Assembly: GCA_000004985.1 (NCBI GenBank)
Contig: GG738853.1
Length of the DNA: 64,000 bases
Direction: 5' to 3' (one strand)
Source: Naegleria gruberi
Taxonomy: Eukaryota
Under the pieces are notes generated by a model. That model was not told the origin of the DNA. It did not search any database and was given only the letters and a program-made list of their open reading frames with translations. This document shows, piece by piece, positions 797-54,590 of this stretch. A program made the translations under genes and the position numbers. How positions within the stretch are numbered: position 1 is the first letter of the stretch; each line of letters opens with the position of its first letter.

Positions 797-1037
797 ACAA
801 AAACATGATTCACAGCAGGCATATGTGATTGTTATTTTCTTAAATGAAAATCTTAGAAATATTTCATAAACTTATTGTATGGAATTGTAAAAAGATCTGA
901 AATCCACTTTCATGAATATGCTCAGCCTGAGTCAATCCATGTTCATTTGAATTGTGTTAGAATGTTACAGCAATTTTCCATCTACTTGTAAAAATTCCTT
1001 AATAATGATGCAACGATTGAGAAATGCCTAAAAATAT

Positions 1038-1110
1038 GCCTCCCTTGGGAATCGAACCCAAGACCTCTGTCTTACTAGGACAGCGCTACTGCCAACTGAG
1101 CTAGGAAGGC
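1038..1110 (-). tRNA. tRNA-Thr(AGU)
   Basis: Reverse complement gives a 73-nt cloverleaf: acceptor GCCTTCC/GGGAGGC, T-arm TTGGG-TTCGATT-CCCAA, anticodon loop cTAGTaa (anticodon AGT). Confidence 0.75.
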
Positions 1111-12058: not shown

Positions 12059-12316
12059 TCTGTTTTTTTCTCTTAATTGCAAATAGAAAGTTTTGGGAAA
12101 CAAATGAAACAACATAATGTAAATTCCATGATCTTGCAATTATAATTATGAAATTGGAATGTAATTTGAATATAGGATCTAAATAGGAGTTAAAAATGCT
12201 GACAATGACATTTTGTAGTCATGGGGTGGCCATTGAGCAAACCTTTATCTTTGGAGAATCTAAAACTATTAGTTTTTGGATATGGATAACAAAAATTACT
12301 AAAAACATTAAAAGAT

Positions 12317-12399
12317 CCGATGAGACGGAATCGAACCGCCGACCACAGGATAACAGTTACAACTACAGTCCCATGCTCTACCAGCTGAGCTATCATCGG
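12317..12399 (-). tRNA. tRNA-Tyr(GUA) with ~11-13-nt intron
   Basis: Reverse complement: CCGATGA-TA-GCTC-AGCTGGTAGAGC...ACTGTA, then the intron, then GGTTCGATTCC...TCATCGG. Canonical T-loop. Intron immediately 3' of the anticodon, as usual for eukaryotic tRNA-Tyr. Confidence 0.8.
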
Positions 12400-27648: not shown

Positions 27649-28674
27649 TTACAATTTATTATTTGCTTTTAAAATTTGCAAGTAATTTATCTTATTCACA
27701 GGTGCTGATGATTTCTCACTGATCTGTTCCACTTTCAGTTCGGAAATCAAATGCTCAGGATGTTTGTAACGTTTCGAATTTAAACACCAAACTCCAAAAC
27801 CTTTCATTGCTTCCTTAATCGAGTTTCTTACTTGACAAGTTTCCATCCTTTCCAATTCCATAAGAAAATCATACAATCTAGCAATAGTCATCAAGAAACT
27901 CTGTTCTGTCGATTGTTTAGTTTCATTTTGTAAGCAAATGGCATGGTTGACCAAAGTTCCATCCCTCAATTCTTTAGGAAAAGATGCCAAATCATTAATT
28001 AGGAAGAAACATTCATTGGAAATTCGTTGAAACTTTTCAATTTCCAAAGTGGTCACAAAATCGAATTGTAATTTAGCCATTTCCATATATATCGAACCTA
28101 GAGAATCAATTCTTCGCCACTGATCACATTTTTCAACTGAAATTTGACTTCCATCAGCCCAGTAAGTTGCCATCTCCAAGCTTGTTTTGAAATATTTCAC
28201 CATTTCGAATTGTAATGTTCGAATCTGAAACTGTGTGAAGAATGAACAAGAGTTGAATAATTCGTCCATCACATAGAGACCTAAACGAATCGATGGATTG
28301 TGGGTTCTTGAAAAGTACTCTTCTTGACCTTCAAATTTCTCAACCAGTTGTATGTGCGTGATCAACTCCTTTCGAATAGTTTCGTCTACATCTTTCAAAC
28401 AATCACAAGCGTCATCAACAATTGACAAGTACAATGTAATCAATGCAAATATCCTCATAATCTTGTAAGAAACTTGTGGAAACGGTCCACATGCGCATCC
28501 ACAACAATCAGCAATTCCATACTTGTGATAATTATCTGAAGGAAATTTGAAAACTTGAAAACACAAATTTTGTAATTCTGTTGTAATTTCCTTGCAATGT
28601 TTGTTGATTTTTGGTGAAGAAGGATTCCATAGCGTTGTTATTTGTTGATAGTATTCATCGATTGACCAATTCAT
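27649..28674 (-). CDS. Class I terpene synthase (microbial/amoebal-type, ~340 aa)
   Basis: Aspartate-rich motif IVDDACD (DDxxD) at about residue 86. NSE/DTE triad LINDLASFPKE at about residue 228. Spacing and length match single-domain sesquiterpene-synthase-like enzymes. Confidence 0.6.
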   Translation of the reverse strand: MNWSIDEYYQQITTLWNPSSPKINKHCKEITTELQNLCFQVFKFPSDNYHKYGIADCCGCACGPFPQVSYKIMRIFALITLYLSIVDDACDCLKDVDETIRKELITHIQLVEKFEGQEEYFSRTHNPSIRLGLYVMDELFNSCSFFTQFQIRTLQFEMVKYFKTSLEMATYWADGSQISVEKCDQWRRIDSLGSIYMEMAKLQFDFVTTLEIEKFQRISNECFFLINDLASFPKELRDGTLVNHAICLQNETKQSTEQSFLMTIARLYDFLMELERMETCQVRNSIKEAMKGFGVWCLNSKRYKHPEHLISELKVEQISEKSSAPVNKINYLQILKANNKL

Positions 28675-29172
28675 TTCTTCAAGAATAGTTTTCGGTTTCG
28701 TCTATTTTTCTGTTGTTACTTTTTCGAAACTGCTTGTGGATTCTCAAAATAATGGAGCTAGTAAGCAAGGTCGGCTTGTTTACTCAACACCTTGTGTTTG
28801 ATCTATGATGAAAATGAAGCGCTTTTCATGGAGGAACGTCACTTGTCTTGACTCTTTGTGACTTTTATGGACGTAGGAAATAGTAAGTTTGGCAAGTTGA
28901 GCATTGACCCAATTGGGATTTATTCAATAATTATCTTGTTTCCATTCCATATTTACCTATTTTCTTCCATCATTCTTAATAACAATATGAAAAGAAATTA
29001 TTAGAAACTGTAGTTTCATTGTGGTGTTACTGGCAACAGTGTTAGAGAATGATATTGGTTTCAACAATAACGTTTTTCACTGACTAAATGATTATATTGA
29101 AATTTATAAAGTGTTGATTATAATAATTATCATTCAACGCATTGTATGGAAAACATTCCTGATATTAAAAAA

Positions 29173-29290
29173 GACTACAGCACCACAGGTTCCCAAGTTG
29201 TCTCCAACCTCAGTACTGATGTGGCTCGACTATACTTAACTTCTCAAATCGGACGGGATGAGGTGCATTCATCGTGATATGGCCGTAGCC
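29173..29290 (-). rRNA. 5S ribosomal RNA gene
   Basis: Reverse complement reads GGCTACGGCCATATCAC...CATCCCGTCCGATTTGAGAAGTTAAG...GTACTGAGGTTGGAGACAACTTGGGAACCTGTGGTGCTGTAGTC. Helix I ends pair, loop-A GGCCATA, loop-C GATCTG-like, GAAGTTAAG, and terminal GGTGCTGTAG. The GGTTGGAGACAAC block resembles the Dictyostelium 5S as I recall it. Confidence 0.65.
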
Positions 29291-29501
29291 ATTCATAATC
29301 ATAAAATCTGAATTTTAAATGAATTCCCTTGGTCCAGTATTGAAAATTGAGATAGTAATGATGTTGTTCGCCATTCTAAACCTTAAATTAAGGTTTACCA
29401 ATAGTCTCAACCTTAAAAGTAAGCCAAGGCAGTATCCTATGTTATCATGTGTATTAATTTAGGATTCCATGCAAATTAAGCAACTCTTTATTTAATTTTG
29501 A

Positions 29502-30356
29502 TTATTTATCTTTCGAATATTGTTTCTTTTCGGTGAATTTCACAAAATTAAGGTTAGTTCCAATCAATTTATCAATTAAACAATACCACGCCCCATAGCA
29601 GTCTTGATAATGTGTATGATGATAGGTATGCTCACTGGCATCCAATAAAATTGACTTGGTGACAGGACTAGTTCTGTAATATTTCATAAAATCAAATCCT
29701 GAATGAGAATGAATTGCTTCAAACGTCTTAACCACAGTCCAAACAAAAGACCAAAATAAATGAGCATGTGTCAATAAAGGACCACTCATGACAGCTGGCA
29801 CTGTCACTAAAAATTCAATTGGATGAAAATATTGAGAACCAATTGAGACTGAGTATTTGATTTCATGATGAAGGTAATGAACATACTTGTAAACATATGG
29901 AATTTTGTGTAATAGAAAGTGAACTATGAATGTGAAAATGTCATCACATAAAATAAATATTGGAATGATGACTAATTGACTGACAAGTGACTCGTTTTGT
30001 AAATCTTGATAGCTGCGACTGAAAGGAGGTGGAAAGAACACACCCATCAATATACTCACTGGTAATCCAATTAAAATATGAATTTTCCAAACTTGTTTTA
30101 CAATTTTCATGTAAAGTTCTGAATCGAGAGGCGAGTTTTTTGGATTTATCAAGAATTGATCCATAAAATTCAAATATTTGTTGATTATCCAATGAACTGA
30201 ATGTCCATTTAGTTGTCTTGTCTTTGCTATTTGATAAATAACAAAAGGTCCATTCAAAAACCAAAAAGAAATTATTTGACAAATGACAGGATAAATTCCA
30301 TAGCATACCCATGAAGGAACTGATTCAATGTAGGTCTTCCATAAGTACTCCAACAT
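29502..30356 (-). CDS. Fatty-acid hydroxylase superfamily oxygenase (sterol desaturase / C4-methyl oxidase-like)
   Basis: Three His boxes (HKIPYVYKYVHYLHH, HSHSGFD, HTYHHTH) and four hydrophobic segments, typical of ERG3/ERG25/SC5D-type di-iron membrane oxygenases. Confidence 0.6.
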   Translation of the reverse strand: MLEYLWKTYIESVPSWVCYGIYPVICQIISFWFLNGPFVIYQIAKTRQLNGHSVHWIINKYLNFMDQFLINPKNSPLDSELYMKIVKQVWKIHILIGLPVSILMGVFFPPPFSRSYQDLQNESLVSQLVIIPIFILCDDIFTFIVHFLLHKIPYVYKYVHYLHHEIKYSVSIGSQYFHPIEFLVTVPAVMSGPLLTHAHLFWSFVWTVVKTFEAIHSHSGFDFMKYYRTSPVTKSILLDASEHTYHHTHYQDCYGAWYCLIDKLIGTNLNFVKFTEKKQYSKDK

Positions 30357-53803: not shown

Positions 53804-53888
53804 AAACTGTTCAAAGTTTATTTAGCCAAAGTTATACTTTGTTCATTCAACGTTTTTCGAAAATTGTAAATATGATGAAAATGTGTAA

Positions 53889-53977
53889 GGCGGCTTAGCA
53901 CAGTGGCAGTGCATCAGTCTTGTAGGCAGCAATGCTTAGATAACTGAGGGTCGAGGGTTCAATTCCCTCAGTCGCCT
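53889..53977 (+). tRNA. tRNA-Thr(UGU) with 17-nt intron
   Basis: GGCGGCT-TA-GCAC-AGTGGCA-GTGC-A-TCAGT-cTTGTa, then intron ggcagcaatgcttagat, then a-ACTGA-GGGTC-GAGGG-TTCAATT-CCCTC-AGTCGCC-T. U33 and A37 flank the TGT anticodon. The isotype call depends on the intron position. Confidence 0.6.
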
Positions 53978-54047
53978 TTTGTATTGGTGATTGCCAAGAA
54001 AAACAAGCCTTAATTGTGAATAAGGGATATTTTCTTTTATCAATGTA

Positions 54048-54120
54048 TCCCCCTTAGCTCAGTCGGTAGAGCGTCAGACTGTTAATCTGCAGGTCGGTGG
54101 TTCGAGCCCACCAGGGGGAG
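54048..54120 (+). tRNA. tRNA-Asn(GUU)
   Basis: TCCCCCT-TA-GCTC-AGTCGGTA-GAGC-G-TCAGA-CTGTTAA-TCTGC-AGGTC-GGTGG-TTCGAGC-CCACC-AGGGGGA-G (73 nt). Confidence 0.8.
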
Positions 54121-54590
54121 TTGTTTTGTTTTTGTTTACTCTAAACTTTGAACTATATTTGATATTACGAATAAGCAGAATATTTCTGAAGGCCAATTGT
54201 TATTTTCAAACGAGATATCCCGTCTAGTTGAGCTGGAAAGCTCAAAAGAAGGGAATGTTAAACTAATAAGGATTGGACGTGATATTCCCGTTCCATGATT
54301 TTTTGCGAGTTAAAACCAGTTCCAAAATCAAGCGGTTGTACAAATCAGACAAGCTAACTGGATTTAAGCATACGAACCAACCTGAAAGAAATGTTTTCTA
54401 ATAGAACCTTCCATTGTAAGCTTTCCAGTATACTGAACATTAAAGATCTCAAAGTCTACTAAGTTGAATTACTATTGCAAATCACCATAATGATTGCTGA
54501 TGACATTGCTGCTACTACCACTCATTAAGTGTGTGATTAATTGTTGTTGATTTGTTGGAGAATCAGATAACACAATCAAAAAAACACAAC

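What the first reader, a model, noticed from the sequence alone, without database searches (positions are those of the whole stretch)
27649..30356. Terpene synthase adjacent to a di-iron His-box oxygenase, with a dispersed 5S rRNA gene between them
The 341-aa minus-strand ORF carries DDxxD (VDDACD) and the NSE/DTE triad (NDLASFPKE) about 140 residues apart, the class-I terpene synthase signature. About 830 bp upstream on the same strand is a fatty-acid-hydroxylase-superfamily enzyme with three His boxes, a plausible tailoring oxygenase for the terpene. If so this is a two-gene terpenoid mini-cluster. A complete 5S rRNA gene (29173-29290, minus strand) lies in the intergenic gap. A chromosomal, dispersed 5S copy next to specialised-metabolism genes is unusual for an organism whose 5S resembles the Dictyostelium type. 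In D. discoideum the 5S is carried on the extrachromosomal rDNA element.
Basis: partly seen in the sequence, partly recalled or inferred. Interest (0 to 1): 0.6.

Follow-up and report, generated by a model that had tools for sequence, protein, structure and literature searches.

The report
Naegleria terpene synthase, oxygenase, 5S gene
This stretch of the amoeba Naegleria gruberi holds a genuine terpene synthase, a neighbouring orphan membrane iron oxygenase that may modify its product, and between them an ordinary copy of the 5S rRNA gene, which in this organism is normally scattered over the chromosomes.

Summary
All three features are real and at the stated coordinates. The window is the Naegleria gruberi NEG-M reference genome, not a Dictyostelium relative. 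ORF 27649-28674(-) is identical to XP_002680653. It matches Pfam Terpene_syn_C_2, carries DDACD, NDLASFPKE and an RY pair, and models as a class I terpene cyclase. ORF 29502-30356(-) matches Pfam FA_hydroxylase and has the full His-box set. A complete 5S gene (Rfam, 98 bits) with a T6 terminator lies between them.

The "unusual dispersed 5S" reading fails. Published work lists 279 putative 5S genes (some partial) scattered over N. gruberi scaffolds, and Naegleria rDNA plasmids carry no 5S. The terpene synthase is also already in published phylogenies.

The two-gene cluster idea is plausible but unproven. The oxygenase is not a canonical sterol enzyme: no relative was found anywhere else. The synthase family occurs only in Naegleria. 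In N. fowleri and N. lovaniensis the synthase is fused, in one uninterrupted ORF, to a different His-box (fatty-acid-desaturase-like) membrane domain. That independently links Naegleria terpene synthases to membrane di-iron enzymes. No co-expression or chemistry data exist, and no other terpenoid genes lie nearby.

The parts
27649..28674 (-). Class I terpene synthase gene, 341 aa, no intron. It is N. gruberi NAEGRDRAFT_54762 / XP_002680653.
   Evidence: ORF. Pfam PF19086 at 44.9 bits. Identical to P0002. AlphaFold model with pLDDT 80.7 and pTM 0.82. Foldseek against PDB puts bacterial and fungal class I sesquiterpene cyclases on top, TM 0.6-0.76.
28402..28416 (-). DDxxD metal-binding motif (DDACD, aa 87-91), at the C-terminal end of predicted helix 70-92.
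   Evidence: Invariant in all Naegleria homologues. Aligns to the DDQCD of T-muurolol synthase.
27970..27996 (-). NSE/DTE metal-binding motif (NDLASFPKE, aa 227-235).
   Evidence: Aligns to the NDVLSLEKE of PDB chain 5nx6_A. N227, D228, S231 and K234 are invariant across the family.
29172..29290 (-). Complete 5S rRNA gene, one of the dispersed chromosomal copies. The T6 Pol III terminator is at 29167-29172 and a TTTAAAA box is at 29313-29319.
   Evidence: Rfam RF00001 at 98 bits, model 1-120. Sequence. The same position is occupied by a 5S gene in a second strain, whose contig L005 starts inside the gene.
29502..30356 (-). FA_hydroxylase-superfamily membrane di-iron oxygenase gene, 284 aa. The reference model XP_002680654 covers only aa 104-284.
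   Evidence: Pfam PF04116 at 62.5 bits. Hydrophobic stretches at aa 16-41, 85-113 and 119-152. The 284-aa ORF is conserved in a second strain.
29616..29921 (-). His-box region of the oxygenase: HFLLH (aa 146), HYLHH (160), HSH (216), HTYHH (243).
28675..29171 (-). 497-bp spacer between the 5S gene and the terpene synthase start. It must hold the synthase promoter.
   Evidence: It diverges 3.6% from the second strain, against 0.4% for the coding sequence. It shares no motif with the oxygenase upstream region beyond chance.

Best explanation
The region is part of the Naegleria gruberi NEG-M nuclear genome and holds three separately transcribed genes.

1. A soluble class I terpene synthase. By inference from the family, its DDACD and NDLASFPKE motifs bind a Mg2+ cluster. 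That cluster ionises a prenyl diphosphate, most likely farnesyl diphosphate judging from its structural neighbours. The carbocation is then cyclised in the alpha-helical pocket.

2. An orphan membrane di-iron oxygenase of the FA_hydroxylase superfamily. By inference it uses O2 and electrons from cytochrome b5 to hydroxylate or desaturate a lipophilic substrate.

3. An ordinary Pol III-transcribed 5S rRNA gene, one of the dispersed chromosomal copies typical of this organism, with no role in the other two genes.

My preferred reading, at about even odds, is that the oxygenase acts on the hydrophobic product of the neighbouring synthase. That would make a two-gene terpenoid pair in which a His-box di-iron enzyme takes the place usually held by a cytochrome P450.

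Shown: gene identities, motifs, fold, organism, and the ordinariness of the 5S gene. Inferred: substrates, the metal chemistry, and the functional coupling.
For: Gene identities:
-.

The 5S gene is ordinary:
- PMC3369914 Table 1 and Table S1 and PMC12482156.
- Assembly of a second strain breaks exactly at the 5S gene, as expected for a repeat.

For the coupling:
- The two genes are immediate neighbours on the same strand, apart from the 5S gene.
- Both are lineage-restricted. The TPS family has only 5 representatives among 1.84 billion proteins, all from Naegleria.
- The window's paralogue is only 24-29% identical to the others and has no counterpart in N. fowleri or N. lovaniensis.
- The oxygenase has no detectable relative outside N. 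gruberi.
- In N. fowleri (L001 10001-12598) and N. lovaniensis (L003 10001-12676) the TPS is fused, in one uninterrupted ORF, to a C-terminal membrane domain. That domain has eight histidines in the HxxxH / HxxHH / HxxHH pattern and matches Pfam FA_desaturase at 33.5 bits.
- Both genes are under constraint: 0.4-0.6% coding divergence against about 4% non-coding.
- Precedent: the DdTPS8-CYP521A1 pair in Dictyostelium (PMC6524965).
Against: - There is no expression, co-expression or product data.
- The fused domain in N. fowleri and N. lovaniensis belongs to a different Pfam family. It shows no detectable similarity to the window's oxygenase by BLASTP or hhalign. It supports only a theme, not orthology.
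- The N. gruberi paralogue closest to the fused synthases (52878-like, 37-41% identical) is unfused. In contig L004 it is followed by a histone H4 gene.
- Co-conservation could be checked only in a second, nearly identical strain.
- A Pol III gene separates the two genes, and they share no upstream motif beyond chance.
- No prenyltransferase, P450 or other terpenoid gene lies within about 15 kb.
- Naegleria genes are densely packed, so adjacency alone is weak evidence.
- The oxygenase structure prediction failed (pLDDT 35.6), so its subfamily is unresolved.
Confidence: 0.5

Rival explanations
1. The adjacency is coincidental. The terpene synthase makes a volatile or otherwise unmodified terpene on its own. 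The FA_hydroxylase-type enzyme is a lineage-specific lipid enzyme, acting on a sterol, sphingolipid, ether lipid or fatty acid, and is unrelated to the synthase. The 5S gene is simply one of the dispersed copies that landed in this intergenic spacer.
For: - The known substrates of the FA_hydroxylase superfamily are mostly sterols, sphingolipids and fatty acids (established knowledge).
- There is no detectable homology between this oxygenase and the domain fused to the synthase in N. fowleri and N. lovaniensis.
- Another N. gruberi paralogue has no oxygenase next to it on the downstream side.
- The two genes share no promoter motif.
- No further pathway genes lie nearby.
- The genome is gene-dense, so any gene has close neighbours.
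Against: - A membrane oxygenase for lipophilic substrates as the immediate same-strand neighbour of a synthase is uncommon by chance. My rough estimate is a few percent per synthase gene, higher once every 'tailoring-like' family a reader would flag is allowed for. This was not computed.
- Both genes are restricted to N. gruberi.
- Sister species physically fuse a synthase to another His-box enzyme.
Confidence: 0.4
2. One or more of the three genes is a decaying or non-functional copy. For example, the 5S copy could be a silent variant among about 280. The oxygenase could be a truncated relic, as the 181-aa reference annotation would imply.
For: - The window's 5S copy has one G·A mismatch in helix II. 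The second strain's contig has a perfect pairing there.
- The 5S stretch diverges 4.2% between strains, as much as the spacer does.
- The NCBI model of the oxygenase is only 181 aa.
Against: - The 5S copy scores 98 bits over the full model and has an intact T-run and a TATA-like box.
- The divergence at the end of contig L005 may be an assembly artefact of a repeat.
- The full 284-aa oxygenase ORF is intact in both strains, with only V54I and I96V changes. It holds the expected N-terminal transmembrane stretches and all His boxes.
- Coding divergence is 7-10 times lower than non-coding divergence.
Confidence: 0.1

Closest known systems
DdTPS8-CYP521A1 terpene synthase/oxygenase gene pair of Dictyostelium discoideum (PMC6524965)
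   Same: A protist class I terpene synthase sits next to a membrane-bound oxygenase that tailors the hydrophobic product. It is a minimal two-gene arrangement.
   Different: There the oxygenase is a haem cytochrome P450 and the conversion was shown biochemically and genetically. Here it is a non-haem di-iron His-box enzyme, nothing has been tested, and the organism belongs to a different eukaryotic supergroup (Discoba, not Amoebozoa).
Microbial class I sesquiterpene cyclases (10-epi-cubebol synthase 7zrn, pentalenene synthase 1ps1/9c7k, T-muurolol synthase 9hqi, BcBOT2 8h6q)
   Same: Single alpha-domain fold (TM 0.6-0.76). DDxxD and NSE motifs about 140 residues apart, with an RY pair near the C-terminus.
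   Different: Sequence identity is only 12-17%. The family is confined to Naegleria in a search of 1.84 billion representatives. Product and substrate chain length are unknown.
Isoprenoid-oxidising members of the FA_hydroxylase superfamily: sterol C4-methyl oxidase (ERG25/SMO), cholesterol 25-hydroxylase, beta-carotene hydroxylase CrtZ
   Same: Matches Pfam PF04116, has the His-box set, and has multiple transmembrane stretches. From my own knowledge, not tested here, the local pattern H-x3-H-x9-H-x2-HH ... HPxE ... HSG ... HxxHH ... GT resembles the SMO/CH25H branch.
   Different: No orthology to any of them is detectable. No relative was found even in N. fowleri or N. lovaniensis. The substrate is unknown.
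Terpene synthase / FA_desaturase-like fusion proteins of N. fowleri (FDP41_010467, 865 aa) and N. lovaniensis (C9374_013610, 891 aa)
   Same: Same Naegleria-specific synthase family (24-28% identity to the window's protein). The synthase is physically coupled to an eight-histidine membrane di-iron domain.
   Different: These are fusions in one ORF rather than neighbouring genes. The partner belongs to PF00487, not PF04116. The order differs: synthase N-terminal there, oxygenase gene upstream here. The fusion loci are not syntenic with this window. The held literature does not describe them.
Dispersed chromosomal 5S rRNA genes of N. gruberi (PMC3369914)
   Same: About 118-119 nt, an upstream TATA-like box, a T-run terminator, and a solitary position in an intergenic spacer.
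   Different: Nothing notable. This copy has one mismatch in helix II.

Membership tests
Class I terpene synthase | Match to a terpene synthase metal-binding domain model above the curated cutoff | tested here: met
   PF19086 at 44.9 bits against a cutoff of 23.7. PF03936 at 23.4 bits is just under its cutoff of 26.3.
Class I terpene synthase | DDxxD and (N,D)D(L,I,V)x(S,T)xxxE motifs about 140 residues apart, plus a C-terminal RY pair | tested here: met
   DDACD at 87, NDLASFPKE at 227, RY at 302. They align to the same motifs in solved enzymes.
Class I terpene synthase | All-alpha class I terpenoid cyclase fold | tested here: met
   AlphaFold2 model with pLDDT 80.7 and pTM 0.82. 280 PDB matches at E <= 0.001; the 50 best listed are all terpene cyclases, TM up to 0.76.
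Class I terpene synthase | Mg2+-dependent conversion of a prenyl diphosphate to terpene | not testable with these tools
   Needs an enzyme assay and GC-MS.
FA_hydroxylase superfamily (membrane di-iron oxygenases) | Pfam PF04116 match above cutoff | tested here: met
   62.5 bits against a cutoff of 31, covering profile positions 3-132 of 132.
FA_hydroxylase superfamily (membrane di-iron oxygenases) | His boxes HX3-4H, HX2-3HH and HX2-3HH after N-terminal transmembrane helices | tested here: met
   HFLLH at 146, HYLHH at 160, HSH at 216, HTYHH at 243. Hydrophobic stretches at 16-41, 85-113 and 119-152.
Canonical sterol C5-desaturase / C4-methyl oxidase orthologue | Conserved orthologues in related species and across eukaryotes | tested here: not met
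   The only hit among 5.8 billion sequences is the N. gruberi protein itself, even at E <= 10. That database holds the N. fowleri and N. lovaniensis proteins returned for the TPS query. Caveat: the search uses a 5-residue word prefilter.
Biosynthetic gene pair (terpene synthase + tailoring oxygenase) | Physical adjacency | tested here: met
   Same strand, 827 bp apart, with only the 5S gene between them.
Biosynthetic gene pair (terpene synthase + tailoring oxygenase) | Linkage conserved across species | tested here: inconclusive
   The arrangement is kept in a second N. gruberi-like sample that is about 99.5% identical in coding sequence. Neither this oxygenase nor an orthologue of this TPS paralogue was found in N. 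fowleri or N. lovaniensis. No intermediate relatives were reachable; two metagenome scans found nothing.
Biosynthetic gene pair (terpene synthase + tailoring oxygenase) | Co-expression, and conversion of the synthase product by the oxygenase | not testable with these tools
   No transcriptome or chemistry is available here.
5S rRNA gene | Full-length match to the covariance model RF00001 above the gathering score | tested here: met
   98 bits against 38, model positions 1-120, one non-canonical pair.
5S rRNA gene | Pol III terminator T-run at the 3' end | tested here: met
   TTTTTT at 29167-29172.

The most novel reading that the evidence does not exclude
Naegleria species tailor terpene synthase products with membrane di-iron His-box enzymes instead of cytochrome P450s, and have arrived at this pairing more than once. 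In N. gruberi it is a neighbouring FA_hydroxylase-type gene (this locus). In N. fowleri and N. lovaniensis it is a covalent fusion of the synthase to an FA_desaturase-type domain. That would be a new architecture for terpenoid biosynthesis. It would point to an undescribed oxygenated terpenoid in free-living amoebae and in the brain-eating pathogen.
Probability: 0.4. Interest if true: 0.65.

Novelty: new member of a known kind. Interest (0 to 1): 0.4.

Why it matters
If the pairing is real, it shows class I terpene synthases recruiting a non-haem di-iron membrane oxygenase as the tailoring enzyme. I know of no characterised example of that for cyclase-type synthases. It would also extend specialised-metabolism gene pairing to Heterolobosea.

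The fusion proteins I found in N. fowleri and N. lovaniensis make the idea directly testable. Expressing one ORF and looking for an oxidised terpene would do it. The fusions also hint at an unknown terpenoid in a lethal human pathogen.

The 5S part does not matter: it is the normal arrangement for this genus. The reference gene model of the oxygenase (181 aa) probably needs extending to 284 aa.

Tried and rejected
- Exact look-ups of N. gruberi reference proteins to obtain the neighbourhoods of the two other paralogues (52878, 65839) failed. The genome is not indexed.
- Two metagenome scans, one with the synthase alignment and one with the oxygenase, found no relatives.
- A repeat of the oxygenase homologue search at E <= 10 found nothing new.
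- Structure prediction of the oxygenase without a real alignment gave an unusable model (pLDDT 35.6), so no fold search was possible.
- The afdb50 fold library was unavailable.
- PDB sequence searches gave no hit for the oxygenase or for the fused desaturase-like domain. NCBIfam gave none for the oxygenase and only an insignificant hit for the fused domain.
- Pfam found the FA_desaturase match only in full-length N. lovaniensis P0011. It did not find it in the excised domain or in the N. fowleri protein. That assignment therefore rests on one marginal HMM hit plus the histidine pattern.
- BLASTP, hhalign and tblastn showed no homology between the window's oxygenase and the fused domain, and no copy of either in the other locus. 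I rejected the idea that they are orthologous.
- I rejected the idea that the synthase was once fused to the downstream 394-aa membrane protein. There is no similarity and no Pfam match.
- A search for shared promoter motifs was negative: a 10-mer match, no better than shuffled sequence.
- Chen et al. 2016 (PNAS) could not be read. Prior listing of N. gruberi synthases rests on its citation in PMC6902781.
Full report
**What is there**

The window has about 33% G+C. On the minus strand it carries three features.
- A 284-aa ORF at 29502-30356.
- A 5S rRNA gene at 29172-29290.
- A 341-aa ORF at 27649-28674.

The 341-aa protein is identical to N. gruberi XP_002680653 (NAEGRDRAFT_54762). The C-terminal 181 residues of the 284-aa ORF are identical to the next-numbered protein, XP_002680654 (NAEGRDRAFT_31446). 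Both lie on a 695,587-bp scaffold. The window is therefore the Naegleria gruberi NEG-M nuclear genome. N. gruberi is a heterolobosean, not a relative of Dictyostelium.

**The terpene synthase (TPS)**

Sequence evidence:
- Pfam Terpene_syn_C_2 matches at 44.9 bits against a cutoff of 23.7.
- DDACD (aa 87-91), NDLASFPKE (227-235) and RY (302-303) are all present.
- They align to the same motifs in solved bacterial cyclases.

Structure evidence:
- An AlphaFold2 model built on seven Naegleria sequences has pLDDT 80.7 and pTM 0.82.
- Foldseek against the PDB returns 280 matches at E <= 0.001, and the 50 best listed are all terpene cyclases.
- The best hits are 10-epi-cubebol, pentalenene and T-muurolol synthases, with TM 0.6-0.76.
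- This is why I infer farnesyl diphosphate as the most likely substrate.

Family distribution:
- A full HMMER scan of 1.84 billion representative proteins found only five family members, all from Naegleria.
- They are three N. gruberi paralogues (54762, 52878, 65839), one from N. fowleri and one from N. lovaniensis.
- The window's copy is 24-29% identical to the others.
- 52878 is 37-41% identical to the N. fowleri and N. lovaniensis proteins and is probably their orthologue.
- N. gruberi synthases are already included in published phylogenies (PMC6902781, citing Chen et al. 2016). The gene as such is therefore not new. I found no report of its product.

**The oxygenase (FAH)**

- Pfam FA_hydroxylase matches at 62.5 bits over the whole profile.
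- The histidine boxes are HFLLH, HYLHH, HSH and HTYHH. They follow three hydrophobic stretches.
- The reference annotation starts at Met104. The full 284-aa ORF is intact in an independent N. gruberi-like sample, differing only by V54I and I96V, and it contains the expected N-terminal membrane segments. The longer model is better.
- It is not a canonical sterol enzyme. Two searches of 5.8 billion proteins, one at E <= 10, returned only the N. gruberi protein itself. NCBIfam and PDB sequence searches gave nothing, and neither did a metagenome scan.
- Structure prediction without homologues failed (pLDDT 35.6), so the subfamily is unresolved.
- From memory only, its local motif pattern resembles the C4-methyl-oxidase / cholesterol-25-hydroxylase branch.

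**The 5S gene**

- Rfam scores it at 98 bits over the full model, with a single non-canonical pair.
- A T6 run sits at the 3' end and a TTTAAAA box lies at -29 to -23.
- The claim that a dispersed chromosomal copy is unusual does not hold for this organism.
  - PMC3369914 reports 279 putative 5S genes (some partial) in the N. gruberi assembly, not located with the rDNA unit. Its Table S1 shows them scattered over many scaffolds.
  - PMC12482156 states that Naegleria rDNA plasmids carry single 18S, 5.8S and 28S genes.
- In a second strain the assembly breaks at this very 5S gene. Contig L005 starts inside it, and L006 ends 75 nt upstream of it. That is the behaviour of a repeat.

**Is it a two-gene terpenoid cluster?**

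For:
- The two genes are immediate same-strand neighbours.
- Both are restricted to N. gruberi.
- Both are under constraint: coding divergence from the second strain is 0.4-0.6%, against 3.6-4.4% in the spacers.
- In N. fowleri (L001 10001-12598; also an independent assembly, L002) and N. lovaniensis (L003 10001-12676) the TPS continues without a stop into a C-terminal membrane domain.
- That domain has HxxxH, HxxHH and HxxHH boxes at the spacing of fatty-acid desaturases. It matches Pfam FA_desaturase at 33.5 bits in N. lovaniensis.
- The fusion shows that at least one Naegleria TPS works together with a membrane di-iron enzyme.

Against:
- The fused domain is unrelated in sequence to the window's oxygenase.
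- The N. gruberi orthologue of the fused synthases is unfused and is followed by a histone gene.
- The two genes share no promoter motif.
- No other terpenoid genes lie within about 15 kb.
- There is no expression or chemical evidence.
- Conservation could be checked only in a near-identical strain.

I put functional coupling at roughly even odds.

**Comparison with what is known**

- The nearest precedent is the Dictyostelium DdTPS8-CYP521A1 pair (PMC6524965), but there the oxygenase is a P450.
- FA_hydroxylase-type enzymes do oxidise isoprenoids such as sterols and carotenoids (established knowledge). I know of none paired with a cyclase-type TPS.
- I found no description of the Naegleria synthase/desaturase fusions in the searchable literature.

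**Verdict**

- The 5S element is ordinary.
- The TPS is a known predicted gene.
- The oxygenase pairing is a reasonable, testable hypothesis. The fusions in sister species strengthen it.

Overall interest is moderate.

Noticed in passing
L001 10001-12598 (N. fowleri VFQX01000006.1), L002 1164-3761, L003 10001-12676 (N. lovaniensis PYSW02000069.1): The terpene synthase is fused, in one uninterrupted ORF (865 and 891 aa), to a C-terminal eight-histidine FA_desaturase-like membrane domain. In P0004 the boxes are at 619, 654 and 808. The held literature does not appear to describe this. A short-chain dehydrogenase gene is conserved a few genes downstream in both species.
   Followed up: partly
window 29502-30356 (-): The NCBI reference model XP_002680654 (181 aa) starts at Met104 of a 284-aa ORF. 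The N-terminal 103 residues hold transmembrane-like stretches and are conserved in a second strain. The reference model is probably truncated.
   Followed up: yes
window 53852-54133 and 60133-60425: Inverted duplication (95-97% identical arms, about 6 kb apart). Each arm carries a tRNA-Thr(UGU) gene of 91 nt, probably intron-containing, and a tRNA-Asn(GUU) gene.
   Followed up: no
window 27649-27700 (-), aa 325-341 of the synthase; alignment A1: A short conserved motif, P(V/I)xYL(D/Q)(V/I)I, follows the synthase domain in four of the five Naegleria family members. In the fusion proteins it sits just before the linker to the membrane domain. It may be a docking or amphipathic helix. It is modelled as a low-confidence helix.
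   Followed up: no
window 29172-29266 compared with L005 1-95: The 5S gene differs at 4 of 95 positions between the two strains, as much as the spacer DNA does. The window copy has a G·A mismatch in helix II (TAGTCG) where the other contig pairs perfectly (TCATCG). This is either relaxed constraint on one copy among about 280, or a repeat-collapse artefact at the contig end.
   Followed up: partly
window 27970-27996 (-) compared with alignment A1: The window's synthase is the only Naegleria family member with the canonical final Glu of the NSE triad and a canonical RY pair. The other four have Asp and RF.
   Followed up: no
window 1037-1110, 12316-12399: Further solitary tRNA genes, Thr-AGU and Tyr-GUA (the latter 84 nt, probably with an intron). 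Together with the 5S gene they show that Pol III genes are scattered singly through this gene-dense region.
   Followed up: no
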